61,913 nucleotides of DNA. It comes from Bacteroidales bacterium (lineage in GTDB: Bacteria > Bacteroidota > Bacteroidia > Bacteroidales > ML635J-15). The notes beneath the pieces were generated by a model that was given only the letters and a program-made list of their open reading frames with translations, was not told the origin of the DNA and did no database searches. Made by a program: the position numbers and the translations under genes. The stretch spans positions 1 to 61,913 of the forward strand of contig JBGUHW010000099.1 of NCBI GenBank assembly GCA_045112395.1. The letters are read 5' to 3'. Below, piece after piece: positions 32,673 through 57,165 of the stretch; within the stretch, counting starts at the first letter, position 1; every line of letters starts with the position of its first letter.

Positions 32673-32848
32673 GTTTCGTTTTAGTGTCTGCAAATATATA
32701 CATTTAATATAAGGTGGCAATACAAAAAATCAGCAGAAATGCATAACATAATACTAAAATATGTCAAGCAGATTATTAAATTCTGCCCAGAACACAATAA
32801 TTTGAAACAAAAATAGTTTATTATACGATAATTATAAATACATTTATT

Positions 32849-33469
32849 ATGAGGACATTATTTTTAACCGTTTTGGTTTTTGCGACAATGACGATTTTTG
32901 CACAGAATGTCAAGGTAAAGGACATAGAAAAGTCGCTGGTGAAAATTTCCGACAATGCTTATGTGTCGAAGTATGATGTGAGCAACGAAATGTACAGTCA
33001 ATTTCTTTCCGATTTGAAAAATAGCGGCAAAACTGATTTATACGCTGCATGTTATCCAGACACGACAAAGTGGCGCACAAAATTTGCCTATTACGAACCA
33101 TTTGTAACTTTATATCATGCTCATCCTGCCTACCTCAACTATCCAGCAGTAAATATCGACAAGAAATCGGCAGAAGAATTTTGCAAATGGTTGACCACCA
33201 AATACAACGATGGGAAAAAGCACAAGTTCGAGAACATAGAGTTCCGTCTGCCAACCGAAGCAGAATGGATGACTTTTGCATCAAAATGCAAAGAAGTGGC
33301 AAAACGCACCGGCGAAGAACTTGGTCCATACGACAATACCGCCATGACTATTGGTAATGTCTCAGAAATGACATCGGACGGCTCGGCAATGGGCGACAAC
33401 TGGGCAAACAAGGAGTCCACAACGCCATCGCCTTGGGTTGGGTTCAGGATTGTCGCTACTGTAAAGTAG
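32849..33469 (+). CDS. secreted formylglycine-generating-enzyme (SUMF1) family domain protein
   Basis: Signal peptide; YPAVNIDKKSAEEFCKWL, RLPTEAEWM, GNVSEMT and WVGFRIV match FGE-sulfatase domain blocks. Confidence 0.72.
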   Translation: MRTLFLTVLVFATMTIFAQNVKVKDIEKSLVKISDNAYVSKYDVSNEMYSQFLSDLKNSGKTDLYAACYPDTTKWRTKFAYYEPFVTLYHAHPAYLNYPAVNIDKKSAEEFCKWLTTKYNDGKKHKFENIEFRLPTEAEWMTFASKCKEVAKRTGEELGPYDNTAMTIGNVSEMTSDGSAMGDNWANKESTTPSPWVGFRIVATVK

Positions 33470-33571
33470 GGTACTTTTTGTTTGCATATGTAAAGAACTG
33501 CATCGCAAATAACCGCTATTAACTTGTAGAAAACTCCATATTTTTTGTAAAGAACCTTTGTGATTTTTGCT

Positions 33572-33579
33572 TACATTTG
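33572..33579 (+). promoter_or_regulatory. -7 box TACATTTG upstream of LytTR paralog 1
   Basis: Matches TAnnTTTG, 17 nt upstream of the ATG at 33597. The context tttgtaaacaaaaa resembles that of paralog 2 (tttgcaaacaaaaa). Confidence 0.45.
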
Positions 33580-33596
33580 TAAACAAAAATTGAACT

Positions 33597-34175
33597 ATGG
33601 AAATCTTTCTGACAGTACTTTTTAGCGTTATCGGGACAATTGTAATTGTATGCCTGTTAAGCGTTACCATTCCAGACCTGAAACTTATGTTCAGCCGCAA
33701 AGCACGGGCAGAGGAAAAAACAATGAAAATCCGGGTTGCCGAACTCGAAGCAAAGGTCGAAACGCTTGAGCAACAGCTTGTCGCATTGCAGCAGAAAGAA
33801 ACGCATATAGTATTGAGTGAAAAGGACACATCAGGCAAACAACTCTTGAATGTAAGCAACTTAAAAGTAAATGCCACATCCATAACACATATTTCATCGC
33901 AGACGTTCGAGCAGTCGGGTGCAGGCGATTCGCGCGTGAAGATTATACATTATGCCGACCAGCAGAAGACCGACTCGGTCTATAGCAGTTTCGATGCTAT
34001 ACTCGAACAGCTTGCTGGCAATTTCCTGCAAATCAACAAGAACCAAATCATAAACCTTGATTATATACATAAGGTACAGGGCGAAGAAATTTATTTGAAG
34101 AATGTTTCAAAACCGTTTTATGTGTCGGAAGGACGGAAAGCAGAGTTTGATATGAGGATAGGAAAGCAAAGATAA
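33597..34175 (+). CDS. membrane-anchored coiled-coil LytTR-domain protein, paralog 1
   Basis: One N-terminal TM helix, a heptad-like segment (KIRVAELEAKVETLEQQLVALQQKE), and a C-terminal LytTR-like block (SFDAILEQLAGNFLQINKNQIINLDYIHKVQGEEIYL). Confidence 0.75.
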   Translation: MEIFLTVLFSVIGTIVIVCLLSVTIPDLKLMFSRKARAEEKTMKIRVAELEAKVETLEQQLVALQQKETHIVLSEKDTSGKQLLNVSNLKVNATSITHISSQTFEQSGAGDSRVKIIHYADQQKTDSVYSSFDAILEQLAGNFLQINKNQIINLDYIHKVQGEEIYLKNVSKPFYVSEGRKAEFDMRIGKQR

Positions 34176-34213
34176 ACCAATGATAATCTGTATCATATAC
34201 TGAAACAAATGTA

Positions 34214-34320
34214 CGACCTCTCCGAGGTCGCTGTTATTGTCATACAAATTTTCTATACATATCCGACCTCGCTGAGGTCGTTATGTATATGTCGTTTGAA
34301 ATCAGACCTCGGAGAGGTCA
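34214..34320. repeat. array of three GACCTC-N3-GAGGTC palindromes
   Basis: cgacctc-tcc-gaggtcg (34214-34230), cgacctc-gct-gaggtcg (34264-34280) and gacctc-gga-gaggtc (34305-34319). The outer two are inverted copies that include the flanks acaaatgt/acatttgt. Confidence 0.8.
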
Positions 34321-34350
34321 AACATTTGTCCCCTTTAACTACATATTTTC

Positions 34351-34382
34351 CCGTGATGTTTACACAAATTGCCGTGATGTTT
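34351..34382 (+). promoter_or_regulatory. perfect 11-bp direct repeat CCGTGATGTTT x2 with 21-bp period (LytTR-box-like)
   Basis: The copies lie at 34351-34361 and 34372-34382, separated by a 10-bp spacer. They sit 32 nt upstream of an imperfect -7 box (GACCTTTG, 34415-34422). Confidence 0.45.
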
Positions 34383-34448
34383 TCGTCAATGATTTTCTAT
34401 AATCCTAATTTGCTGACCTTTGCGCCCGTAAAATTTTATTTTAACTAA

Positions 34449-34478
34449 AAAACCGCTGGGCCGATGGGATATAACTGG
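34449..34478 (+). promoter_or_regulatory. conserved 30-nt leader motif, copy 1
   Basis: aaaaccgctgggccgatgggatataactgg, ending exactly 11 nt before the ATG at 34490. It is 26/30 identical to copy 2. It contains the uORF ATG at 34464 (MGYNWHERK), whose TGA (34491-34493) overlaps the main ATG. Confidence 0.6.
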
Positions 34479-34489
34479 CATGAAAGGAA

Positions 34490-35008
34490 ATGAAAAGGAA
34501 GGCATTGCTTTGGTTGTTTATTGCATTGGCAGTTTTTGTTTTACCTTCTTGCATTAGTGTCAAGGAAGTTGGAAAGGTAAGTATGATTTCTACAAGAAAT
34601 GTTTCAATGAAGACGGATTATGTATTAGTGTCATCGTATTCAGGAGGTTCAAAATCTGATTTGAAAAAGTCGAAGGCAACCAATATTGAAGAAGCTGTAG
34701 ATCAAACAGTACGAAAAGTTCCCGGGGGTGAATTTCTGATGAATGCGAAAATCAATTTGGTTTACCACAGGGTATCTGGCAAGGCTTTTTTTGCAATAGA
34801 GGGTGATGTTTATGGAAACAAGTCTGCTAATGGAGGAGCAGAAAGGTCTTATCGTGGATTTCAAACTGGTGACAAAGTAAGTTGGGGTAATAAATTAACA
34901 GGTTTTAAGTCGGGCACAATAAAGTCGCTCAAGGATGACAAGACTTGTCTGGTGGAAACAGAAGATGGCAGGACCGTGGAAAAGAAATACGATGAGTTAA
35001 GCAAGTAA
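34490..35008 (+). CDS. hypothetical lipoprotein
   Basis: MKRKALLWLFIALAVFVLPSCIS is a signal peptide with a lipobox; 172 aa. Confidence 0.65.
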   Translation: MKRKALLWLFIALAVFVLPSCISVKEVGKVSMISTRNVSMKTDYVLVSSYSGGSKSDLKKSKATNIEEAVDQTVRKVPGGEFLMNAKINLVYHRVSGKAFFAIEGDVYGNKSANGGAERSYRGFQTGDKVSWGNKLTGFKSGTIKSLKDDKTCLVETEDGRTVEKKYDELSK

Positions 35009-35041
35009 TTAGCACTGTATATTTCAATAATTTAACTGATT

Positions 35042-35071
35042 AAAACCGATGTACCAATGGGATATAACTGG
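35042..35071 (+). promoter_or_regulatory. conserved 30-nt leader motif, copy 2
   Basis: aaaaccgatgtaccaatgggatataactgg, ending 11 nt before the ATG at 35083. The uORF starts at ATG 35057 (MGYNWEKQE), and its TGA (35084-35086) overlaps the main ATG. Confidence 0.6.
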
Positions 35072-35082
35072 GAAAAACAGGA

Positions 35083-35319
35083 ATGAAAAAGTTTTTGTTT
35101 GGAATTTTGGTTATTGCAGGACTATTATTAGGCATGTCGTCTTGTCATAAATATTGCCAATGCAAATATTATGAATCTGGAGTCGTAGTCCTTGAAGATG
35201 AAGTGGAAGACGTTAGTGGGGTTTACAAGAATTGTGCGGAATACACAGTTGACCTTCATAATGCAGACCCAGATTATAATGGGAACGATAAGACAGGATG
35301 GTATTGTTACAAATACTAA
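35083..35319 (+). CDS. small Cys/Tyr-rich lipoprotein
   Basis: MKKFLFGILVIAGLLLGMSSCHKYCQC is a signal peptide with a lipobox; 78 aa. Confidence 0.55.
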   Translation: MKKFLFGILVIAGLLLGMSSCHKYCQCKYYESGVVVLEDEVEDVSGVYKNCAEYTVDLHNADPDYNGNDKTGWYCYKY

Positions 35320-35478
35320 ATTTCGATTAAGGGCAAGAAAGTTACTCCGCTTGCCAATCTTTACAATGCGTTGGGTGAGGTTACGGAATGAAAAACAAAA
35401 GCATTATCAAGACGTAAAGGGCAGGTTTATGCATGTACCTCCCACAGAGAACGCAAAAGTCTTATTTTAAAGACAATT

Positions 35479-35511
35479 AACTGCATGGAAGGAATATTCC
35501 ATGCAGTTTTG
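35479..35511 (+). terminator. rho-independent terminator
   Basis: Perfect 12-bp stem aactgcatggaa/ttccatgcagtt with a 6-nt loop, ending in a T run. Confidence 0.7.
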
Positions 35512-35594
35512 TTCAAACTATAATTTGCAACGAAACACAATTTATTTGTAATCGCGAGCAATTTTTTTGCTAATTGATGTCGCGCAAATTTGCT

Positions 35595-35602
35595 TATTTT
35601 TG
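35595..35602 (+). promoter_or_regulatory. -7 box TATTTTTG upstream of LytTR paralog 2
   Basis: Matches TAnnTTTG, 14 nt upstream of the ATG at 35617. The track start at 35590 is a TTG just 5' of this box (ORF reads through it). Confidence 0.45.
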
Positions 35603-35616
35603 CAAACAAAAAAGCT

Positions 35617-36198
35617 ATGTTCGACACTATTCTAAACATTTCATTGGTTCTCCTATTTTTCACGCTTTCAATATTCTTTATAGCGGTAACTTTCCCAACC
35701 ATAAGGGATTTCGTAAGGGGGAAAAAGAACGACAGCAACAACGATGAAGCGCTTGCCCGCAAAATATCCGACATGGAATCGCGACTAAATGCTCTCGAAC
35801 AGCAATTGTCAGTTTCAAAAGAAATGCATATAGTTGTAAACGAAAAGGAAGAGCAATCAAAACAACTGCTCAATCTCAATAACCTGAAAATAAAGGCAAT
35901 ATCAATATCTTACATAGCATCACAAGTGTTCGAGATTCCAGAAGGCGGTGATTCGAGAATAAAGGTAATCCACTATTCCGGCACCTCAAAAACAGACTCA
36001 GTATACAGCACTTTCGATGCAATACTCGAGCAACTTTCGGGAAACTTCATGCAAATCAACAAGAACCAGATTGTTAACCTCGACAAGATACACAAGATTC
36101 AAGGCAACGAAATTTATCTTGCAGGAATGTCGAAACCATTTTTCGTATCGGAAAACCGCAAGGACGAATTCGATGTAAGAATCGGAAAAATCAATTAG
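35617..36198 (+). CDS. membrane-anchored coiled-coil LytTR-domain protein, paralog 2
   Basis: Same architecture as 33597-34175, with long shared stretches (KTDSVYSTFDAILEQLSGNFMQINKNQIVNLDKIHKIQGNEIYL). Confidence 0.75.
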   Translation: MFDTILNISLVLLFFTLSIFFIAVTFPTIRDFVRGKKNDSNNDEALARKISDMESRLNALEQQLSVSKEMHIVVNEKEEQSKQLLNLNNLKIKAISISYIASQVFEIPEGGDSRIKVIHYSGTSKTDSVYSTFDAILEQLSGNFMQINKNQIVNLDKIHKIQGNEIYLAGMSKPFFVSENRKDEFDVRIGKIN

Positions 36199-36330
36199 CA
36201 CTCGCAATTCATAAATTGCAAATTACAAAAAGCAAACCTCAGATGTCGTTTTTGTGGCATCAAATTGCAAACCACACATTACATTCGTGCAATTACGACA
36301 CATTTGCATCGTCAAATAAATTAATAATTT

Positions 36331-36363
36331 AAAACCGATGGAGCCGCATGGTATATAACTCGG
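36331..36363 (+). promoter_or_regulatory. conserved leader motif, copy 3 (33 nt, with small insertions)
   Basis: aaaaccgatggagccgcatggtatataactcgg, ending 11 nt before the ATG at 36375. Here the internal ATG (36348) is in frame with the main ORF (MVYNSARCK-MKRC...). Confidence 0.55.
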
Positions 36364-36374
36364 CACGATGTAAA

Positions 36375-36857
36375 ATGAAAAGATGTGTATTTTTTATTAT
36401 TGGCGTTATGATTGCATTAGTATTTGCTTCTGGATGCACAAAAGTTGTTACACAAAGTACTGTCCATGAATTCAACGTCACATTCAGCAATGTAGCCAAC
36501 AAACAAATAGTGTCAGAAGGTTATACAGGACTGAAGGGCTGTGTATGTTCATCCGATGCCATACTAGTATATGTTTATTTTGGAAATACATCAGGCGAAG
36601 ATATATGGATGCCTCTGCCCGCAACCATTAACACAGCATTATACGACTACGCTTATACTGATAACGGCATATTTATATTTAATGCCGATGCAGGCGTTGG
36701 TAATGTTTGGATAAATGATTTCTCGTTGAAGTACAGGGTTATCCAGATACCAAGAACTGCCGTTGTTTCAAAATCGATTGAAGAACTCAAGGCTGACGAC
36801 TACAATGAAGTAATAAAAGAATTAGACCTGTACAATGCTCCTATTATGCGCAAGTAG
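36375..36857 (+). CDS. hypothetical lipoprotein
   Basis: MKRCVFFIIGVMIALVFASGCTK is a signal peptide with a lipobox. An alternative in-frame ATG lies at 36348. Confidence 0.6.
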   Translation: MKRCVFFIIGVMIALVFASGCTKVVTQSTVHEFNVTFSNVANKQIVSEGYTGLKGCVCSSDAILVYVYFGNTSGEDIWMPLPATINTALYDYAYTDNGIFIFNADAGVGNVWINDFSLKYRVIQIPRTAVVSKSIEELKADDYNEVIKELDLYNAPIMRK

Positions 36858-36882
36858 GAACTATATTGTAATCTAAAAACAA

Positions 36883-36916
36883 ACGGCGGGAATGAAAATC
36901 ATTCTCGCCGTTTTTA
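36883..36916. terminator. bidirectional rho-independent terminator
   Basis: acggcgggaatg-aaaat-cattctcgccgt, a 12-bp stem with one G-U pair, flanked by an A-run and a T-run. It lies between convergent genes. Confidence 0.65.
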
Positions 36917-36932
36917 TTTTGCTTGACAGATT

Positions 36933-37163
36933 CTATATAGCCACAACTTCCTTAACCTGCGGAACATCGGTCTTAAGTTTGTCCTCAACGCCGAGTTTCA
37001 AGGTCTGGATACGATATGGGCACGAACCGCAAGCACCCTGCAATCTTACCTTTACTGTAAAATCTGGAGTAACCTCAATAAGTTCTATGTCGCCACCATC
37101 CTGCTGAAGGAAAGGCTTAATCTCGTCAATAGATGCTTGGATTTTCTTTACTATTTCTTCCAT
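36933..37163 (-). CDS. NifU-like (Nfu) Fe-S cluster domain protein
   Basis: 76 aa with IKPFLQQDGGDIELIEV and GACGSCPY, both typical of a NifU C-terminal domain. Confidence 0.85.
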   Translation of the reverse strand: MEEIVKKIQASIDEIKPFLQQDGGDIELIEVTPDFTVKVRLQGACGSCPYRIQTLKLGVEDKLKTDVPQVKEVVAI

Positions 37164-37174
37164 ATTAAATAAAT

Positions 37175-38269
37175 TTACTTTGTTTCAACCATTTTTGTCG
37201 GAGGCAAAGTTGCATTGCGCTTTTCTACAGCCTTTACCAGATTCTCAGCAAGCTGAGCAAACAACTTTCCTACTATGCTTGCAAACTCCATTGATGCCGG
37301 CATACCCTTGTCGCCACTGTCGCAAATCGACTTCACAATAGGAATCTGTCCGAGCAATTCGGTGTCCATAGCCTTTGCTAACTCCACACCACCGTCCTTG
37401 CCAAAGAGATAATACTTGTTGTCGGGCAGTTCGGCTGGCGTAAACCACGACATATTCTCGACAATACCCAGAATCGGCACATTTATGTCCTTCATACGGA
37501 ACAAAGAAACAGCCTTACGTGCATCGGCTATTGCAACCTGCTGCGGGGTGCAAACGACAACAACGCCTGTTACCGGAACCGTCTGAACCAATGTAAGGTG
37601 GATATCACCAGTTCCTGGAGGCATATCGAAAAGCAGGTAGTCTAGTTCGCCCCACTTAGTGTTCTGTATGAACTGCCTCATAACGCCGGCAGCCATAGGT
37701 CCGCGCCAGATTGCAGCACTACCAGGTGCAACAAAGTAACCAACCGAAAGCAATTTTATTCCGTACTGCTCAATTGGCATAATTATTTCGCGACCTTCGG
37801 CATCGGCTTCCGCCAAAGGCTGCGCATCTTCGGTATTGAACATCTTTGGAACACTCGGTCCAAAAATATCGGCATCAAGCAAACCGACCTTGTAGCCTTT
37901 CTGCGCCAACGAAATTGCAAGGTTCACCGCAACCGTTGATTTACCGACACCACCCTTGCCACCTGCAACAGCGATAATGTTCTTCACCTTGCCCACTCCA
38001 CATTCAGCGGGTTTTGCTTTCACTTCTTTAGGTTTTACCTTTGTAGTTACGTTTACCACCACATCACCGAAATGAGCTTCCAAAGCATCCTTTACATCGC
38101 GCCTAATTGATGCAAGAAATGGATCGGTAGCCTTTGTGAACAAAAGAGTTACATTTATTTCTTTTCCACAAACTTCAATGTCACCAATCATACCCTCAGC
38201 TTCGAGTGGCTTACCAGTTTCGGGGTAGCACACAGCACCAAGGACTTCTATAATATCGTCTCTATTCAT
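37175..38269 (-). CDS. Mrp/NBP35 (ApbC) family Fe-S cluster carrier ATPase
   Basis: N-terminal MIP18-like domain and the deviant Walker A motif GKGGVGKST. I use the ATG at 38269; the track start at 38293 is a TTG inside the -7 box. Confidence 0.9.
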   Translation of the reverse strand: MNRDDIIEVLGAVCYPETGKPLEAEGMIGDIEVCGKEINVTLLFTKATDPFLASIRRDVKDALEAHFGDVVVNVTTKVKPKEVKAKPAECGVGKVKNIIAVAGGKGGVGKSTVAVNLAISLAQKGYKVGLLDADIFGPSVPKMFNTEDAQPLAEADAEGREIIMPIEQYGIKLLSVGYFVAPGSAAIWRGPMAAGVMRQFIQNTKWGELDYLLFDMPPGTGDIHLTLVQTVPVTGVVVVCTPQQVAIADARKAVSLFRMKDINVPILGIVENMSWFTPAELPDNKYYLFGKDGGVELAKAMDTELLGQIPIVKSICDSGDKGMPASMEFASIVGKLFAQLAENLVKAVEKRNATLPPTKMVETK

Positions 38270-39691: not shown

Positions 39692-39699
39692 TACCTTTG
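39692..39699 (+). promoter_or_regulatory. -7 box TACCTTTG upstream of the radical-SAM cassette
   Basis: Matches TAnnTTTG, 24 nt upstream of the ATG at 39724. The track start at 39697 is a TTG inside this box. Confidence 0.45.
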
Positions 39700-39723
39700 C
39701 ATACAAAAATCCCGACAAAGGAT

Positions 39724-41139
39724 ATGGTAAAGTTTTGTACAGCATACGAACCAATACGACAGCAAGTGCAACGCATTGCTAACAACCTGCACTACAAGCG
39801 ACACATTGCCCGCGATGTAGAAGATAGTGTTTTTCGGGAAAAGTTAATCGATTACAACAGGCAACGCACACTCGGTTGCGACCCTACAGTATGCCATGTT
39901 CCGTTGCGTAGCCTATATTTCGGGTTCGATGGAATTGTAACCGCATGCTGCTTCAACCGTAATTTTGTGCTGGGGAAATTTCCAGAAAACTCTATTGATG
40001 AAATAATTCATGGGGAAAGACGGAAAACATTGCAGAAACATATCTCAGAAACCAACTTTTCGTATGGTTGCCAATACTGCAAAAATATGATTACAGCAGG
40101 AAACTATATGTCTGTAGGTGCAAGATTTGCAGATGTCTTTCCCGATAAGGGCGACATCCCGTCCGAAATGGTTTTCGAACTCGACAACACCTGCAACCTG
40201 CGATGCGAGATGTGCAATGCAAAATTCTCGTCGGCACACAATGGTGGCAAACGCATTGTCGCTCCATACGACACCAATGAATTCATTGAGCAACTGAAAC
40301 CGTTCATCCCGCATCTTGCAAAAACACGTTTTTTAGGTGGAGAACCGTTTCTTAGCGACATATACCCGAAAATATGGGAACTTATAATAGAACTTAACCC
40401 AAAATGCAAGATTAGTTTACAGAGTAACGGCACTATACTAAACGAAAAAATCAAATCTATCCTACAACGAGGAAATTTCCATATAGGACTATCAATAGAC
40501 ACTCTAAATCCTGCACACTACGAAAGAATCAGAAGTGGTGCAAAAATTGAAAGAACATTAGAAAATCTTGAGTTTTTCAATTATATCTGTCAGAAGAACA
40601 ACGACCACGCAAGCATATCTGTTTGCCCGATGAAAGAAAACCGCCTAGATATTCCAGAACTTGTTGACTTTTGCAACAAAAAAGGCATTTACATATATTT
40701 CAACGATGTGATTACCGAAGGTTTTTCCATTAGCGAACTGTCGGTACAAGAACTTGATGAACTCTCAGCATATTACAAAAAAAACAATCGGAAAGGGCAT
40801 AATTATATTTCAATCCACAACCACATATCATTTTCTAACCTCATAAGAAAAGTTGAATATCATAGGGACCAACGCAAGCAAAAAATCTACATGGACGAAA
40901 CAATCCCTTGTACGCGAAAGGAATTTGTTGAAATGCTAACTACTATTATTTCGGAAGATGAAAGCATAGATATTAAGGAAGCGAAATACTTGGTGGATTA
41001 TATTCCTGAAAACTTTCTGATAAAACGAAGCGAATACCTGTACATAAAAAACGAAATGAAAATAGACAGCATAAAGAACTTTATAAGTCAGTCCAAAGAA
41101 AAACAAATGGAGCACTTAAACAAAATACTTCACATTTAA
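39724..41139 (+). CDS. radical SAM protein, paralog 1, with N-terminal SPASM/twitch-like Cys-rich domain
   Basis: CxxxCxxC motif (DNTCNLRCEMC). It is preceded by CHVPLRSLYFGFDGIVTACC...SIDEIIHG...YGCQYC, which follows the SPASM-type C..G-x4-C..C-x2-C pattern. A ~130-aa Cys-free helical tail follows. Confidence 0.85.
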   Translation: MVKFCTAYEPIRQQVQRIANNLHYKRHIARDVEDSVFREKLIDYNRQRTLGCDPTVCHVPLRSLYFGFDGIVTACCFNRNFVLGKFPENSIDEIIHGERRKTLQKHISETNFSYGCQYCKNMITAGNYMSVGARFADVFPDKGDIPSEMVFELDNTCNLRCEMCNAKFSSAHNGGKRIVAPYDTNEFIEQLKPFIPHLAKTRFLGGEPFLSDIYPKIWELIIELNPKCKISLQSNGTILNEKIKSILQRGNFHIGLSIDTLNPAHYERIRSGAKIERTLENLEFFNYICQKNNDHASISVCPMKENRLDIPELVDFCNKKGIYIYFNDVITEGFSISELSVQELDELSAYYKKNNRKGHNYISIHNHISFSNLIRKVEYHRDQRKQKIYMDETIPCTRKEFVEMLTTIISEDESIDIKEAKYLVDYIPENFLIKRSEYLYIKNEMKIDSIKNFISQSKEKQMEHLNKILHI

Positions 41140-49688: not shown

Positions 49689-52600
49689 TTAGTACAAAAT
49701 TGATACTGTACCAGTGTAAGCCCTGTCTTTTTCAAGGTTTTCGAGGTTTACAATGTACAAGTAGACACCTGATGGCACATAATGTCCACGATAGCGTCCG
49801 TCCCATGGCTCGTCAGTACCACGTCCTTCGTACAGCAACTGTCCCCAACGGTTGTAAACATAAATGTATGCTTCGGGGAACATTCCTATATTCTCGATTA
49901 CCCAAGTGTCGTTCACACCGTCCTCGTTTGGTGTAAATACATTAGGAATCTTTATACATTCACCCACATGATCATACATTGAAAGTGCATTCATAGTTAT
50001 GCGACAATCGTTTGCATCGGTAATAGTTATGCTGTATGTTCCCTGAACAAGGTCTGTCATCATATTGGTTTCGTTTGCCGAATTTGCCCACGAGTATGTG
50101 TACGGAGCTTCACCACCAGTAACCTCCAATTCGATGCTTCCATCGCGTCCGCCAGTACATGAAGGAGGTATAATTAGCGGTGTTACCTTTATCTGTTCCG
50201 GCTCGGCTATACTTGTAGTTACAGATACTGTACATCCGTATACATCGGTGACAACCACCGAGTATATTCCTGCACTAAGTCCATCAAATATAGGACCACC
50301 TGTCATGGTCAAGTTGCCATAATGCATAGAATATTCTATTGGCGATGTTCCACCGCTGGCAGTTGCACTGATTTTTCCGCCTCTGCCGCCATAACATTGG
50401 ATGTCTGTAGTTTCGGCACTTACCAATAATCGTTCTGGCCATGTTATTGTATAGGTGCTTACGTTGGTACAACCATTACCATCAGAGATGGTTAGCGAGT
50501 AGCTTCCTGCTCCTAGTTCATTTATGCTGGAGTTGTGCGTTCCGTTGCTCCATGAATAGCTATATGGTTCTGTTCCTCCACTGACACTAACAGCGACCGT
50601 ACCGGCACGTTCTCCGAAACATTTTGGATTGCCTGAAGTTGAATTAATAGTTAGCGGACGCGGTTCGGTAACATCGTATGTTGCAGTACCTTCGCAACCC
50701 CATGCATCGGTAATAGTTACAGAATATGTGCCTGCGCCAACATTGAAGTTTGTCTGGTAGGTTGCTCCGTTGCTCCAGATGCAACTCTGGAATGGCATTG
50801 CAGCACTTTCTGATGTTACGACAAGAACACCAGTGTTGTTTCCGTTGCATGATATTGGATTCTGCTCTTCTATTACAGCAGGTATTATGCCGATATTCCT
50901 TATTGTTGCATTCTGTGCAAGCGTACAATTGTTTCCATCGGTTACTGTTACAGAATAATCTCCACTTGTAAGGTTAGAAATTGCATCTGCATCCGATCCA
51001 TTTGTCCATCTGTACTGATATGGAGTCTGACCGCCGTCAACACTAACCGATACGTTACCCAGCGATATTCCGCACTGTACATCCGCATGTGTCATGTTAA
51101 TTCGCATTGCATCTGGTTGCGATATTGTAGTTGAAGCCGTAGATGTACATCCTGTCGAATTATCGGTTACAGTTACATTATAGGTATTAGGTTCGAGAGA
51201 TGTTATGTTGGCCGAAGTCTGATTGTTTGACCATACATACGAATACGAGCCCGACCCACCAGTTACACTAGTCGTAATTATACCATTTCCAAAGCCATAG
51301 CATGTCACATCTGCAGGTGTAATTGTTATGGTCGGATTTGGATTTACAGTTAAGTTCAGTGTTACAACACTATCACATCCGTTTACAGTCAGCAAGTCCT
51401 GTACATAAGTACCGCGCACACTTTCGTTGAAGCCGTTTTCTGTATAAGTCTCACCTTCACAAATACTAGCATTGATTACCGGGTGATATGTTGGGTTTAC
51501 AGTTATTACACGTGTTGTTGGCTGCGCATTAGTACCAGTAAGGGCAATTCGGATGATATTTTCACCTGGTGTTGTCCATTCTACCTCTATTGTTTCTGTT
51601 CCTTGTCCCGAAATTATGTTTCCACCCTGAACAGTCCAGTTGTAATAACTTCCAGGAACTACAGTAGAGTAGGTTACTATGTCGCCTTGGCATACTGGGC
51701 TTGGTCCGTCAATTGGAATATCGCAGTAGTCAATGTTTATTGTACCGCTAACCGAAGTTTCATTGCAAGCTACATTTTGTCCTGTCGTTGTTATAGTGTA
51801 GTCGATTCTACCTACTCCACTAGCATTTCCACTGATAGTTATCTGGTTTCCTTCTTCGGAATAATCGATTCCGTATGCCGGGAATCCTGTTACCGATACA
51901 CCAGTAGCCCCACCTCCGTACTCGAAAGTGAGTTCGGTAATATCGTATAGGAAGCACGCGTCAAGTGGATTTACCGAGGATGGGGTTATCGTAGGTGGTG
52001 TTGCAAATGTTATTGTAACATCGTCCGAAACAACAGTAGATGGACAATGAACATTTTCGAAGCGCCATGTCATTGTAGCATCGTACGGATAGGTTGTTCC
52101 ATTATATGTTATTGTTGCAATAGGAGAACTTGCATCAGAAATACTTACATTTGCTGGCAAGTTCGTCCAACCGCCTATCCAATCCGAACTAGGCCACGAA
52201 GCATCAAGTGTATATTCGTTTGCACATACATTGTCATCGTCACCAGCTAATATCTCTGTAATATCATTGTACAATTCAAGATTATACATCTGGTTAAGTT
52301 GTGCCGAACAACCATTAGGAACCGAAATCGACGTTATGGTGAGTAGCATGGTTTCGGTTATCGTGTGTGATGCTTGATATGGTGTCGTAACAGTATAGTT
52401 TTCTGAATTTTCACCAGCAGAAATCGTGTATGTGACAGTAGCTCCTGAAGGATACGAGTTTATCATGAAATTCGAAGAACTTCCAGAGCACACAGGCGTA
52501 ATGCCAGTTACTTCAACTGTAGGAGACGGATTGATTGTGACATTGGCTTCTGCCGATTCGATTCCGCAGTCGTTAACGACATATGCAGTATATATTCCTG

Positions 52601-55600
52601 AGCTAATCGGACTTACATTTGTAAGTTCCAATGTATGGGTATTCGAATTTCCTATTTCTACTCCATTGAGCCTCCATTGGTATGCTGGATTGCAAAGGAG
52701 ATCTTCGTCAACATCTATACTTAGAGTTACATTTTCTCCTTCACAAGCAACTACATCGTTAATACTAAACGTTTCTACTTCAGGTTTAACTGTTACCGTA
52801 TCAAGAAGCACCTTTATTATACCACAGCAAGATGTCGAAAGTTCTGCTCGAACGATTGCCTGCTGTATTTGACCTGTAGTGTTATTGAATGCAACATTAA
52901 CACATCGTCCTGTTGTTACACTAGTAATTTCTGCTACTGTAGATGTGATGTCCCAATTTATGACTATTGATGGATCGAGTGCCACATCTGTTATGCAATA
53001 TTCGTGAACACTTGCACAACAAACGACATCATCGCCTTCCATTGTGACCTGAGGAAGAGATGGTGCTGCCTGAATCATAGTAATGAAATTAGTATAGTTA
53101 CCAGAAGATCCTGCAGGAGTTTTTAATCCTGTTGTAGAGTACGAAACAACGGTTCCACTAGCACCGCTAGTTGGGGTTGCTCCTGCTCCGAATGATGTAT
53201 ACGAAATACCACTCATTGCTATTCCAATGCCAGTACAACTTGCGATTGGGTGCTCGTCAGAACCAGCAATAATTTCAGTTTGATTTTCAAGGTTAAAGTT
53301 GTAGCCTGTTGATACCGATGATTGCAATCCTGCGTTGGTAACATTAGCGATCTTGAAAGCTACACCAGTTGCACCTTGTCCACCTTGACCGCCACGACCG
53401 CCTGCGCCGCCGTTGCCGCCTCTACCTCCAGTGCCTCCATAGGCAGTACCGCCGCAAGTATAACTGCAGCGAGAACCACCGACTCCTGCTCCACCTTGAC
53501 CACCGGCACCGCCATTTCCACCGGAACCACCAGCACCGCCTTGACCTCCTGTTCCTGTAAATATGTTACAATCAATTATACCTTCTGTATTTAAAGGTGT
53601 ATTATATAGGTATAATCCGAATGTGGAGCCACCGCCATAACCGCCGTAGCCGCCGTAGCCGCCGCCACCGCCGCCGCCACCGGCACCGCCAGGACCACCA
53701 CTTGATGTGGTTTCACTAAATGAAAGGAATTGCGAACAAGCTGCAGTACCGCCAGTGCCACCAGCACCGCCACCGCCACCACCGTAGCCACTGCCTCCTT
53801 GTCCCGATATGTTCGGTTTAAAGTATTCGTCGTAGTCAGTATTAACGATTTGCCTTGTCGTACCAGTTGCGCCTGCTATACCAGCAGAACCAGCACTACC
53901 AACTCCGCCAGTTCCACCATCTTCACTTTCGCAGCTTCCTACGTCACTTGTGGTATAGTTGGTTCCCGTTGAACCTTTGCTGCCGCCCTTGCCATTAGTA
54001 CTATTGTAATTTGAAGCATTGCCACCTGTAGAGCCTCCAGCTTGTGCTCCACTACCACCTCGCTGATCTCCTGTACCGCCTGGAGTCATGCCGTTTCCAG
54101 CTGCCCCAGCCGCACCTTGAATTCCCTGCTTGCCTGTTCCACCTGTTCCTGGCTTCAACTGGCATCTTACAATTTCGTAGTCATTACAATTTTTCAAGTG
54201 TACCGCATAGTTCGATATTCCATAGTTGGTTGCGGTTACTACTTGTTCATCAGTTGGAACCAAGTCGGCAGGAGAAAACCTATACACAAGTCCATTTGCA
54301 GGCTTGCATGTCTCGTTGAATGTACAGCCTACTGCCGATGCCACCTGTGTTGGGTTTGACCAGTCAGATGAAACACTGATATATTTTGACGAACCGGTCT
54401 GCCCGTCGCGAACACCTACACGAGGCGTCAATGTGGTTTCGGTACACGGATTAATACTTCCGTAGCAAATTTCAATCACATTTGTGTTTTCGTAGAGTTT
54501 TATTTGGAAACTTTCCGAATATGTCGAAGTACGACAGCTTGTTGAATATGGTACTAAGTTGAACCATTCTATTGTAAGTACTCCACCACTGTAATTTGAA
54601 TATATATTTCCGCTATATGGTGGATAAAGGTCATGAAGCAATGCTAACACTGAACTTGTGCTAGGAGCAGAAAGCGTTCCCGAAGGTGCATCACCAAAGG
54701 TTATAAATCCATTGGAGCAAACATACAATGTCGAGCCACTGAAATAGGTTGTTCCGCACAAAGTGAAGTCGAAAGGAAGAGTTATTGGCAATGATGCATC
54801 GTCGCCAAACGAACCTATTACATTTGATGTGTTGTGTGGAATATTGGAATATGCCCTTGTGACCGTCTCGAAGTTCCATCCACTGCAACTGTAGAGATAC
54901 GAAACTTGACTACCGCCTGGCAAATCGTTTCGTGCATCTTGTGTTTCGATTGTCAAGTCCTGCAGACGGAATCCACTTACTGCATCACCCTTCACAGCAA
55001 CAACCGCAGGAGAATTGGCACTACCAAGCGCGTATGTATTTGTACGACGAATAGTCGTTGCTCCTGCCCTTGATGTCTTCTTGTTGAAGTTGTCGAAATA
55101 ACCACCTTCAATCGTCACATTACTTACAAGATCTAGCGGATAGTCGAGTTCGTATGTGCCTTCTGCCATTCTTATTATAGCACCTGAACATTCCGACATT
55201 CTAAGTGCAGAAATAATATTTGTAGGGTCGGAAGGCGTCATTCCACTGCCATCACCATTTACATCAACATACACAACATTGCACTCGTTCATCGAGTTTA
55301 CATCAATTACCTCCACTACAACATCCGTTTCGCCAGTACAACCCAGAGGAGTGCTAACTGTTACTTGGTATGTTGTTGTTGCAGACGGAGCCACACTTAT
55401 TTCAGGAGCATGTTCTCCACTTGACCATGAATAAGAACAGTTGTCACAATTTGAGACCACAGTTGACAGAGTAACATTGGTGCCACCGCAAAGCCTTACA
55501 TATCCGGGCTGAATTGCCACTGTTGGACTAGGATGAGCCGTAATGCTTGCGCTAGAAATATCAGAACAAGTGTTTGTTACAGAAGAATTTGTCTGTGGAT

Positions 55601-56819: not shown

Positions 56820-57165
56820 TGTGCGTATTTCTTTATAAAAAATCTTCATAATCTTCATAATTATTACATAAAAGCAACTGCATAAATAGCTGGTTTTCCT
56901 TATGTTACAAACGCAACATCCGAAAAATGTCACTACATATAACGACCGCAATTTAAAACTTTTTTAAGAAATAGGCAAGTTTTTTTGCTTATTTTCTAAT
57001 AGTCATAACGATTAACTGAAAAATAGGTTGCCTGATCGCTTTAGATTTTCATTTTCTAAAAGCAAATCCAGTTTTAGTTTTGATTAGTTTTTTATGATTG
57101 CATGCCGCATATTTTGCATTATTGCATAACAATTATTGGATGGCGAATGACAAGTCCACGCAAAT

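What the first reader, a model, noticed from the sequence alone, without database searches (positions are those of the whole stretch)
33572..36857. Duplicated module: membrane-anchored coiled-coil LytTR proteins interleaved with lipoprotein genes
**Seen.** Two paralogs (33597-34175 and 35617-36198) share the same architecture: one N-terminal TM helix, a heptad-like segment, and a C-terminal LytTR-like DNA-binding block. They share long near-identical stretches (KTDSVYS.FDAILEQL.GNF.QINKNQI.NLD.IHK.QG.EIYL) and similar promoter contexts (tttgtaaacaaaaa versus tttgcaaacaaaaa). Each is followed by lipoprotein genes: A (172 aa) and B (78 aa) after paralog 1, and C (~160 aa) after paralog 2.

**Established knowledge.** LytTR domains are usually outputs of response regulators (AgrA, ComE, AlgR), or act with a separate membrane inhibitor as in streptococcal LytTR regulatory systems.

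**Inference.** A LytTR domain directly tethered to the membrane through a coiled coil, with no receiver domain and no kinase nearby, suggests a one-component, membrane-sensing or proteolytically released regulator. The adjacent lipoproteins would be its regulon.
Basis: partly seen in the sequence, partly recalled or inferred. Interest (0 to 1): 0.65.

Follow-up and report, generated by a model that had tools for sequence, protein, structure and literature searches.

The report
Membrane-anchored LytTR regulators beside leader-tagged lipoprotein cassettes
Two paralogous DNA-binding proteins of the LytTR type, each fixed to the inner membrane by one helix and a short leucine zipper, probably control their own genes and the variable lipoprotein genes next to them; the "shared leader" in front of those lipoprotein genes is instead a separate, undescribed RNA hairpin used by over a hundred mostly secreted-protein genes in rumen Bacteroidales.

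Summary
Two 51%-identical paralogs (33597-34175 and 35617-36198) each have one N-terminal transmembrane helix, a zipper of about 3.5 heptads, a flexible linker and a LytTR domain. The LytTR call rests on Pfam (34 bits, cut-off 22.6) and on the predicted fold (matches AgrA and ComE). Three lipoprotein genes follow them.

The family is tiny: 40 hits among 1.84 billion representatives, all from uncultured herbivore-gut Bacteroidales. Upstream of these LytTR genes, in most clades examined, lie direct repeats at exactly a 21-bp period, the canonical LytTR operator geometry (8 of 13 regions; shuffles average 0.4). This supports autoregulation. A conserved 21-bp repeat block also precedes the promoter downstream of LytTR1, whichever cassette follows.

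The three shared leaders are not LytTR sites. The motif occurs in at least 120 metagenome stretches, and only 9 of 133 instances have a family LytTR gene in the same fetched locus. It lies 13-15 nt before the ATG in most cases, and 79% of the genes it precedes encode exported proteins. It folds into a strongly covarying hairpin with an invariant AUGGKAUAUAAC loop and matches no Rfam family.

Membrane-embedded LytTR regulators are already known (CoxC, HigX). This is a new single-pass, zipper variant of that kind.

The parts
32849..33469 (+). Secreted FGE-sulfatase/GldK-like protein (206 aa). It is the constant upstream neighbour of LytTR1 orthologs. Whether it belongs to the module is unknown.
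   Evidence: Pfam PF03781 at 42.9 bits, with partial GldK/GldJ NCBIfam hits far below their cut-offs. Syntenic in L001-L009, L147, L148 and L151.
33523..33556 (+). Candidate LytTR1 operator: direct repeat TTGTAGAAAAC / TTGTAAAGAAC at a 21-bp period, ending about 16 nt before the -7 box.
   Evidence: 9 of 11 matches at period 21. Conserved in orthologs. The pattern TGTARA-N15-TGTAR hits here.
33572..33579 (+). Bacteroidota-type -7 promoter box (TACATTTG) of LytTR1, followed by a short A-rich leader.
   Evidence: Read from the sequence. The block TTTGCTTACATTTGyAAACAAAAATTGAACTATG is invariant in orthologs. The TAnnTTTG consensus is established knowledge.
33597..34175 (+). LytTR1: TM helix 3-25, zipper about 43-64, disordered linker 68-85, LytTR domain 83-191.
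34205..34329 (.). Array of three GACCTCnnnGAGGTC hairpins, bounded by a 25-nt inverted repeat. It is a variable insertion between the LytTR1 stop codon and the conserved promoter block, possibly a terminator or insulator.
   Evidence: Present in 5 of 10 orthologous spacers. There are 19 copies in 6 loci, all in this spacer, and none elsewhere in about 1 Mb.
34338..34381 (-). On the minus strand it reads TGTAAAC...N...TGTAG, the same cores as the LytTR1 upstream operator. It is the candidate operator for the cassette promoter.
   Evidence: It lies in a block of about 130 nt that is conserved whichever cassette follows.
34415..34422 (+). Promoter -7-like box (GACCTTTG) of the first cassette downstream of LytTR1.
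   Evidence: GACyTTTG is conserved in all 10 orthologous spacers. Promoter function is inferred.
34449..34479 (+). Leader element copy 1: AAAACCGCTGG - GCCG - ATGGGATATAAC - TGGC, ending 10 nt before the lipoA ATG.
34490..35008 (+). lipoA, a lipoprotein (lipobox VLPSC) with a C-terminal SH3-like segment.
   Evidence: Myosin_N SH3-like hit at 23.4 bits, below the cut-off of 27. Orthologs in L001, L004, L007, L009.
35042..35072 (+). Leader element copy 2, with the compensated stem CCA/TGG, 10 nt before the lipoB ATG. No promoter box lies upstream, so lipoB is probably co-transcribed with lipoA.
35083..35319 (+). lipoB, a small Cys-rich lipoprotein (78 aa).
   Evidence: A contig covering 35041-35454 is present in three rumen metatranscriptomes.
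35479..35508 (.). Perfect 12-bp palindrome: terminator of the lipoA-lipoB unit.
35524..35577 (+). Candidate LytTR2 operator: three units (TTTGCAACGAAA, TTTGTAATCGCG, TTTGCTAATTGA) at a 21-bp period, ending 18 nt before the -7 box.
   Evidence: Best tandem site in the whole window with a matrix built only from non-window relatives: 23.2 against 15.7 for the next hit and 18.0 or less in shuffles. The pattern is unique, with 0.01 expected. Conserved in orthologs.
35595..35602 (+). -7 promoter box (TATTTTTG) of LytTR2. It lies inside the longer TTG-start ORF, so the ATG at 35617 is the real start.
35617..36198 (+). LytTR2, paralog with the same architecture.
36213..36229 (-). Invariant block AAATTGCAAATTACAAA just after the LytTR2 stop codon. 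Its reverse complement, TTTGTAATTTGCAATTT, contains LytTR2-type operator cores.
   Evidence: Invariant in 9 loci, including the other-genus locus L024. A role as a binding site is inferred.
36299..36306 (+). -7-like box (CACATTTG) of lipoC.
   Evidence: Conserved in orthologs. L024 has a perfect TATATTTG here.
36331..36364 (+). Leader element copy 3 (longer-stem type, GCCG...CGGC), ending 10 nt before the lipoC ATG.
36375..36857 (+). lipoC, a 160-aa beta-sandwich lipoprotein and the most constant partner of LytTR2.
36881..36913 (+). Intrinsic terminator ending the module.
   Evidence: 15-bp stem followed by a T-run.

Best explanation
LytTR1 and LytTR2 are bitopic inner-membrane transcription factors. 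Each has an N-out/C-in signal-anchor helix with essentially no periplasmic part. A leucine zipper of about 25 residues dimerises the protein just under the membrane. A flexible linker of about 15 residues lets the two C-terminal LytTR domains reach DNA.

Each paralog binds direct repeats spaced 21 bp apart just upstream of its own promoter, which gives autoregulation. It thereby also controls the exported-protein cassette(s) immediately downstream. That control would come through read-through transcription, through related repeat units in the downstream spacer (34338-34381 for LytTR1, 36213-36229 for LytTR2), or both.

Because there is no extracytoplasmic domain, the input must be sensed within or at the membrane, for example envelope or lipid state, or contact of the TM helix with a partner.

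The cassette mRNAs carry a second, independent control layer: a conserved 5'-UTR hairpin about 10 nt upstream of the AUG. This hairpin is shared with many unlinked genes and is not the LytTR target.

Shown: the architecture, the fold, the family distribution, the repeat geometry and its conservation, the synteny, and the covariation and spread of the leader.
Inferred: DNA binding to those repeats, the direction of regulation, the dimer, the membrane location and the signal.
For: - LytTR HMM above the gathering score, and a LytTR fold.
- A single TM helix with positive-inside flank and a clean heptad register across the family. Coiled-coil-only PDB hits over residues 37-68.
- A direct repeat of at least 9/11 at exactly period 21 in 8 of 13 independent upstream regions. 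Periods 12-31 otherwise give 0-2, and shuffles give mean 0.42 and maximum 3.
- This geometry is the canonical LytTR site, a pair of 9-bp repeats spaced 10-13 bp (PMC11347149).
- A matrix built only from non-window relatives ranks the LytTR2 upstream site first in the whole window. The triple unit is unique in the window.
- The promoter block with the 21-nt repeat downstream of LytTR1 is conserved irrespective of which cassette follows and shares the TGTAGA/TGTAAA cores.
- In the distant clade, the 21-bp repeats lie in the intergenic region between the divergent lipoprotein and LytTR genes.
- No terminator is predicted between LytTR2 and lipoC, and RNA contigs run past the LytTR2 stop codon.
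- Precedent: HigX, a 4TM-LytTR factor that binds envelope-gene promoters and needs its TM domain (PMC13384398).
Against: - There are no binding or expression data.
- The cassette-promoter repeats were not recovered by the unbiased matrix. The pattern linking them to the LytTR1 operator was derived post hoc from the same sites.
- Cassette content varies between close relatives.
- lipoC homologs exist without a LytTR neighbour.
- Leader-tagged genes also follow unrelated small HTH genes, so adjacency could reflect a cassette hot spot.
- The domain is divergent: the Pfam match covers only profile positions 20-96, and there is no sequence-level PDB hit.
- TTTG-rich repeats partly resemble ordinary Bacteroidota promoter elements.
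Confidence: 0.55

Rival explanations
1. Neighbours without a regulatory link. The LytTR proteins regulate only themselves or distant genes. The lipoprotein genes are there because this locus is a hot spot where leader-tagged cassettes accumulate and are exchanged by recombination at the conserved leader.
For: - Cassette content differs among backbones that are 90-99% identical, with breakpoints at or after the leader.
- A mobile element with an integrase-like gene has split the two LytTR units in L007/L010.
- lipoC homologs occur with a leader but without a LytTR gene.
- Leader-tagged genes often occur in tandem elsewhere.
Against: - The promoter-plus-repeat block downstream of LytTR1 belongs to the LytTR unit, not to the cassette.
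- A different lipoprotein family is linked to the distant LytTR clade in a divergent arrangement across the intergenic region that holds the repeats.
- LytTR2-lipoC is kept in 9 of 10 loci, including a locus from another genus.
Confidence: 0.25
2. The shared leader is itself the LytTR operator on DNA. The two paralogs would then be global regulators of the whole leader-tagged secretome.
For: - Three leader copies cluster beside the two LytTR genes, and there are none in the remaining 59 kb of the window.
- The close LytTR clade and the leader co-occur in the same lineage.
Against: - The stem halves vary in sequence but stay complementary, with G-U pairs tolerated. That is the signature of a folded single strand, not a duplex protein site.
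- The distance to the ATG is fixed, whereas the distance to the -7 box is variable.
- The leader does not resemble the 21-bp repeats.
- Only 9 of 133 instances have a LytTR gene in the same locus.
- The distant LytTR clades have no leader.
Confidence: 0.05
3. Same factor, but held inactive at the membrane and released by regulated proteolysis in the disordered linker. This would resemble a fused version of the streptococcal LytTR regulatory systems, or anti-sigma-type intramembrane proteolysis.
For: - A linker at residues 68-85 with pLDDT below 50 separates the zipper from the LytTR domain.
- LRS membrane proteins act by sequestration (PMC13384398, citing Xie et al. 2020).
Against: - No protease gene is linked.
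- The zipper would be lost on cleavage, whereas LytTR sites need two domains.
- In HigX the TM domain is required for activity (PMC13384398), and CoxC binds DNA while in the membrane (PMC11347149).
Confidence: 0.15

Closest known systems
HigX of Caulobacter crescentus (transmembrane LytTR transcription factor; PMC13384398)
   Same: N-terminal membrane anchor with no periplasmic domain, a low-complexity linker and a C-terminal LytTR domain. There is no receiver domain. Its targets are cell-envelope genes, and it acts from the membrane.
   Different: HigX has a four-helix TM bundle and no coiled coil, and it is alphaproteobacterial and SOS-induced. The proteins here have a single TM helix plus a leucine zipper, are found in Bacteroidales, and are adjacent to lipoprotein cassettes. 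No detectable sequence relationship exists beyond the LytTR fold.
CoxC of Afipia carboxidovorans (MHYT-LytTR one-component repressor; PMC11347149)
   Same: A single polypeptide that is membrane-bound. Its LytTR domain binds three direct repeats overlapping the -35 region, and it is active while in the membrane.
   Different: CoxC senses CO through a seven-helix MHYT domain with copper. The proteins here have no sensor domain at all.
LytTR regulatory systems HdrRM/BrsRM of Streptococcus mutans (PMC6193735)
   Same: A receiver-less LytTR regulator whose activity is tied to the membrane, with autoregulation through direct repeats.
   Different: In LRS the regulator is soluble, and a separate 3-4-TM inhibitor is encoded downstream. 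Here the anchor is fused to the regulator, and the downstream genes encode lipoproteins with cleavable signal peptides.
AgrA/ComE/AlgR-type response regulators
   Same: LytTR fold (target TM 0.70-0.72 to AgrA and ComE) and the 21-bp-period direct-repeat operator geometry.
   Different: There is no receiver domain, no cognate kinase and no phosphorylation. Dimerisation would come from a zipper instead of receiver-domain contacts.
For the leader: cis-regulatory 5'-UTR RNA motifs catalogued in Rfam
   Same: A short conserved hairpin with covarying stem and an invariant loop, at a fixed position before the start codon.
   Different: No Rfam 15 family matches and no paper contains the sequence. It is associated with exported-protein genes in a phylum that does not use Shine-Dalgarno pairing.

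Membership tests
LytTR DNA-binding domain (Pfam PF04397) | HMM score above the gathering threshold | tested here: met
   34.2 and 34.6 bits against a cut-off of 22.6. The match covers profile positions 20-96 of 98.
LytTR DNA-binding domain (Pfam PF04397) | Characteristic all-beta LytTR fold | tested here: met
   In the AF2 model, residues 83-191 have pLDDT about 85. Foldseek matches ComE 4cbv, AgrA 4xqn/3bs1/4g4k and B. cereus 3d6w, with probability 1.0 and target TM 0.70-0.72.
LytTR DNA-binding domain (Pfam PF04397) | Target sites are direct repeats of about 9 bp spaced 10-13 bp apart, near the promoter | tested here: met
   Period-21 repeats lie upstream of 8 of 13 independent family genes, with period and shuffle controls. 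Actual binding cannot be tested here.
LytTR DNA-binding domain (Pfam PF04397) | Base-contacting residues equivalent to those of AgrA | not tested
   No residue-level alignment to AgrA could be obtained, because sequence searches against the PDB found no LytTR chain.
AgrA/AlgR/ComE-type response regulators | N-terminal receiver (REC) domain and a cognate histidine kinase | tested here: not met
   There is no Response_reg hit. The N-terminus is a TM helix plus a coiled coil. No kinase lies among the neighbours.
LytTR regulatory system (HdrRM/BrsRM) | A soluble LytTR regulator followed by a gene for a 3-4-TM inhibitor | tested here: not met
   The regulator itself carries the TM helix. The downstream genes encode lipoproteins with a single cleavable signal peptide.
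Membrane-embedded one-component LytTR regulators (CoxC/HigX kind) | TM region and LytTR domain in one polypeptide, with no receiver | tested here: met
Membrane-embedded one-component LytTR regulators (CoxC/HigX kind) | Multi-pass membrane domain (MHYT 7TM or a 4-helix bundle) acting as sensor | tested here: not met
   There is only one hydrophobic segment; the next-best KD19 is 0.91 or less. There is no MHYT hit.
ToxR-like transmembrane transcription regulators | N-terminal cytoplasmic winged-helix domain, TM helix and C-terminal periplasmic sensor | tested here: not met
   The topology is the opposite and the DNA-binding fold is different. In the window's two paralogs the extracytoplasmic tail is 2-7 residues; other family members have tails of 0-48 residues.
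Known RNA families (Rfam 15), for the leader | Covariance-model match | tested here: not met
   Nothing relevant at E of 1 or less over 32700-37200.
Integron attC cassette sites, considered for the leader | Folded-strand site at the 3' end of cassettes, with a GTTRRRY core and a linked IntI integrase | tested here: not met
   The element lies at a fixed 13-15 nt before the start codon in most cases, including single isolated genes. The reverse complement GTTATAT does not fit GTTRRRY. No integrase search was made beyond the fetched loci.

The most novel reading that the evidence does not exclude
The shared leader is a previously undescribed structured 5'-UTR RNA. It consists of an invariant AACCGAYGG flank, a covarying 3-5-bp stem and an invariant AUGGKAUAUAAC loop, and it ends about 10 nt before the AUG. 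It would give post-transcriptional control, probably of translation initiation, to a lineage-wide and largely accessory set of small exported proteins in rumen Bacteroidales. Membrane-tethered LytTR factors, and elsewhere small HTH proteins, would supply the gene-specific transcriptional input. Together this would be a two-layer control system for an exchangeable secretome.
Probability: 0.5. Interest if true: 0.75.

Novelty: new variant of a known kind. Interest (0 to 1): 0.55.

Why it matters
How membrane-bound transcription factors work without any external sensor domain is an open question, and only two membrane-embedded LytTR regulators have been studied. This minimal version, with one helix, a zipper and a LytTR domain, comes with predicted operators and an adjacent read-out gene. 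That makes it a simple model that could be tested in a Bacteroides host.

The leader hairpin may matter more. Bacteroidota do not use Shine-Dalgarno pairing, and how their mRNAs are selected for translation is poorly understood. A conserved hairpin at a fixed distance from the AUG of more than 100 genes, mostly for exported proteins, offers a direct handle on that question. It also offers a handle on how gut Bacteroidales regulate a variable surface and periplasmic proteome.

Tried and rejected
- **Leader as promoter or LytTR operator: rejected.** The stem covaries. The distance to the ATG is fixed while the distance to the -7 box is variable. Most copies lack a LytTR neighbour.
- **Leader as a sigma-54-type promoter (TGG-N9-GC): rejected.** The spacing fits only the 4-nt-stem type and shifts by 1 nt in the longer-stem type, and some copies lack the GC (reading).
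- **Leader as an integron attC site: rejected.** It sits before the start codon rather than after the cassette, and the core does not fit.
- **Loop AUG as an obligatory uORF start: not supported.** The frame relation to the main AUG is 80: 39: 18, not fixed, and the offset scales with stem length. A bias towards a 9-codon uORF ending in an AUGA overlap (69 of 137) remains unexplained.
- **Remote homology between lipoC and the distant clade's lipoprotein: inconclusive.** hhalign gives 81% probability over 38 columns.
- **lipoC function from fold: no answer.** There is no significant PDB match.
- **Defence-system or phage origin: no support.** PADLOC gives nothing and PHROGs gives nothing meaningful.
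- **Mapping the transcription start: not possible.** The only RNA runs are held as assembled contigs, not reads.
- **Residue-level comparison with AgrA contact residues: not possible.** Sequence searches against the PDB find no LytTR chain.
- **Third TGTARA-N15-TGTAR hit at 51362:** it lies inside a 2420-aa coding region and is taken as chance.

Full report
**Observation**

The region holds five same-strand genes exactly as described:
- LytTR1, 33597-34175
- lipoA, 34490-35008
- lipoB, 35083-35319
- LytTR2, 35617-36198
- lipoC

The real lipoC start is 36375 (MKRCVFF...ASGC, 160 aa). The longer ORF beginning at 36348 starts at an AUG inside the leader.

The two LytTR proteins are 51% identical, E 5e-69. 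Both pass the Pfam LytTR gathering score, at 34.2 and 34.6 bits against 22.6.

An AlphaFold model built on a family alignment gives three parts:
- one long N-terminal helix, residues 2-71
- a disordered linker, residues 68-85
- a confident beta domain, residues 83-191

The beta domain matches the LytTR domains of ComE, AgrA and a B. cereus protein, with target TM-scores of 0.70-0.72.

Across 18 family members there is a single hydrophobic segment (KD19 2.5-3.1) and no second one. In the window's clade the N-terminal tail is 0-7 residues with no Lys or Arg; the most distant clades have tails of 12-48 residues carrying 1-7 Lys/Arg. Three to six Lys/Arg follow within 15 residues of the helix. This predicts an N-out/C-in signal anchor with the LytTR domain in the cytoplasm.

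Residues M43-V47-L50-V54-L57-L61-L64 form a clean a/d heptad register. Sequence searches against the PDB hit only designed coiled coils over residues 37-68.

No receiver domain is present. The neighbours are housekeeping genes (rmlACD, NifU, Mrp, RimM, S16) plus a short secreted FGE-sulfatase-like protein.

**Distribution**

The family is very small. A word-indexed search finds 79 clusters at 90% identity. A profile search of 1.84 billion representatives finds only 40 hits at E of 0.001 or less, about 25 of them full length.

All 25 genomic loci come from uncultured Bacteroidales MAGs of cattle, buffalo, yak, deer, sheep, goat and horse guts.

Both paralogs have orthologs across the window's genus. 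A second genus also carries one of each type (L013 and L024), so the duplication is old.

**Linkage to lipoprotein genes**

In close relatives, each LytTR gene is followed on the same strand by one to three small genes for exported proteins. The content varies between backbones that are otherwise 90-99% identical. The cassettes seen are lipoA, lipoB, a lipoC-like protein of 155 aa and a 271-aa secreted protein. In one genome, about 15 kb carrying an integrase-like gene separates the two LytTR units.

LytTR2-lipoC is the most constant pair, kept in 9 of 10 loci.

In a distant clade (36-45% identity) there is no downstream cassette. Instead, a different conserved lipoprotein of about 150 aa is transcribed divergently from the LytTR gene. 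Other distant members have a divergent gene for a secreted protein.

Linkage is therefore a family trait, but it is not obligatory for the partner. Divergent lipoC homologs in L146, L149 and L150 have no LytTR gene within 4 kb.

lipoC is predicted to be a beta-sandwich with no significant structural relative.

**Candidate operators**

Searching the 160 nt upstream of 13 independent family genes for direct repeats gave a sharp result. Eight regions have a repeat of at least 9/11 at exactly period 21. Every other period from 12 to 31 gives 0-2 regions. Dinucleotide shuffles give a mean of 0.42 and a maximum of 3.

The units resemble TTTGTmAyGAAA. A pair of 9-bp repeats spaced 10-13 bp apart is the canonical LytTR site (PMC11347149).

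A matrix built only from relatives outside the window ranks the site upstream of LytTR2 (35524) first in the whole 62-kb window on either strand. It scores 23.2, against 15.7 for the next hit and 18.0 or less in shuffles. With the unit at 35566 there are three units, and the pattern is unique in the window.

LytTR1 has TTGTAGAAAAC / TTGTAAAGAAC at 33523-33556.

Downstream of LytTR1, a block of about 130 nt is conserved in all ten orthologous spacers, whichever cassette follows. On the minus strand, the repeat carries the same TGTAAA/TGTAG cores at the same spacing as the upstream operator. The pattern has three hits against 0.2 expected, two of them flanking LytTR1 and the third inside a large coding region. 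This pattern was derived post hoc from these same sites.

The LytTR2-lipoC spacer begins with an invariant AAATTGCAAATTACAAA, whose reverse complement contains LytTR2-type cores.

In the distant clade, the repeats lie in the intergenic region between the two divergent genes.

I conclude that autoregulation is well supported by comparative evidence. Control of the adjacent cassette is plausible but inferred.

**The shared leader is something else**

The three lipoprotein genes are each preceded by AAAACCGAYGG-stem-ATGGKATATAAC-stem. This motif occurs three times in the window, all here, against 0.09 expected.

The analysis gave these results:
- Of 133 instances, only 9 have a family LytTR gene in the same locus.
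- The ATG follows TATAAC by 13-15 nt in 92 of 111 distinct genes.
- 88 of 111 products (79%) have a signal-peptide-like N-terminus, and the products range from 31 to 1818 aa.
- A Bacteroidota -7 box is enriched 20-28 nt upstream, but at a variable distance.

The two stem halves were left unconstrained by the search pattern. They vary widely yet remain complementary (GCCG/CGGC, GGCG/CGCC, CTCG/CGAG, GTCA/TGAC, ACTCG/CGAGT). The mean stem is 3.94 bp, against 2.49 +/- 0.08 when the halves are re-paired at random.

On a gap-free alignment of 42 sequences, the three core pairs are formed in 40, 42 and 42 of 42 sequences, with 8, 22 and 2 double-sided changes. The covariation score is 0.533 against 0.170 +/- 0.024, with 0 of 500 shuffles reaching it and all slid controls at 0.112 or less.

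Conserved pairing with changing sequence, tolerated G-U pairs, strict orientation and a fixed distance to the AUG all indicate a folded sense-strand RNA in the 5' UTR. They do not indicate a duplex DNA site.

Rumen metatranscriptome contigs contain the leader joined to several different downstream ORFs. Because they are assemblies, they cannot fix the transcription start, and DNA carry-over is not excluded.

There is no Rfam match and no paper with the sequence.

The offset to the AUG grows with stem length, so about 10 nt from stem base to AUG is the conserved quantity.

A divergent lipoC homolog with no LytTR neighbour still has a perfect leader. Several leader-tagged genes sit 116-145 nt downstream of small XRE-like HTH genes instead. 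The leader is thus a general expression platform for cassette genes, with different transcription factors placed upstream.

**Comparison with what is known**

Membrane-embedded LytTR regulators are a known kind:
- CoxC is an MHYT-LytTR repressor that binds three direct repeats while in the membrane (PMC11347149).
- HigX is a 4TM-linker-LytTR factor that binds envelope-gene promoters and needs its TM domain (PMC13384398). That paper also records that such architectures were noted in the original description of the family.
- Streptococcal LRS use a separate membrane inhibitor (PMC6193735).

The present proteins meet the LytTR criteria and the "TM plus LytTR in one chain" criterion. They fail the receiver, LRS, multi-pass-sensor and ToxR-like criteria.

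The single-pass anchor plus zipper is, as far as the held literature shows, undescribed. I class it as a new variant of a known kind. The leader hairpin is the more novel element but lies partly outside the finding as given.

**Verdict**

The "three leaders" are not its operators, proteolytic release has no support, and the architecture class is not new.

Noticed in passing
window 34449-34479, 35042-35072, 36331-36364; loci L026-L146: The leader hairpin is a lineage-wide element. It occurs in at least 120 metagenome stretches and precedes 111 distinct genes, 79% of them for exported proteins. The stem covaries strongly, the loop AUGGKAUAUAAC is invariant, and there is no Rfam or literature match. 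It is a candidate new cis-regulatory RNA.
   Followed up: yes
window 34464 / 35057 / 36348 (the AUG inside the leader loop): The invariant loop AUG is in frame with lipoC, so gene callers start there (169-171 aa instead of 160 aa). In 69 of 137 leaders it opens a 9-codon uORF (MGYN...) whose UGA overlaps the main AUG as AUGA. The frame relation is biased (80 : 39 : 18) but not fixed.
   Followed up: partly
window 34205-34329; L001, L004, L007, L008, L106, L131: Arrays of 2-4 GACCTCnnnGAGGTC hairpins occur only in the spacer after LytTR1 orthologs: 19 copies in 6 loci and none elsewhere in about 1 Mb. The stem sequence is conserved, the loop varies, and the copy number is variable. Their role is unknown; they could be terminators or insulators, or a protein-binding palindrome.
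   Followed up: partly
L033, L083, L091, L097 (also L056, L084, L099, L110, L114, L122): A small XRE-like HTH protein (75-96 aa) is the most recurrent neighbour of leader-tagged genes. In four loci it lies 116-145 nt upstream on the same strand, mirroring the layout of LytTR followed by a cassette.
   Followed up: partly
L007 8547-9686 and L010 (same contig, about 15 kb apart): In one MAG, an insertion of about 15 kb carrying an integrase-like gene separates the LytTR1 unit from the LytTR2 unit. In another MAG (L001 and L011) the two units are on different contigs.
   Followed up: no
L013 6001-6551: The LytTR1-like gene in this MAG is split between two reading frames. This is either a frameshift or an assembly error. 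An intact version exists as P0020.
   Followed up: no
window 33475-33493 versus 33571-33589: A 19-nt inverted repeat brackets the LytTR1 upstream region. The left arm, just after the FGE-like gene's stop codon, is highly conserved. On the minus strand it resembles the LytTR promoter, and it contains a further TGTAAAGAAC unit.
   Followed up: partly
window 32849-33469: A short secreted FGE-sulfatase/GldK-like protein (206 aa) is invariably encoded just upstream of LytTR1 orthologs. It could be a periplasmic partner or could be unrelated.
   Followed up: no
window 49689-56951 (minus strand): A 2420-aa secreted protein with many repeated Ig-like segments, a Gly-rich region and a C-terminal gliding/T9SS-type sorting domain (reading of the translation only).
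   Followed up: no
window 39697-41139: A 480-aa ORF with two CxxxCxxC-type cysteine clusters that looks like a radical-SAM/SPASM enzyme (reading of the translation only).
   Followed up: no
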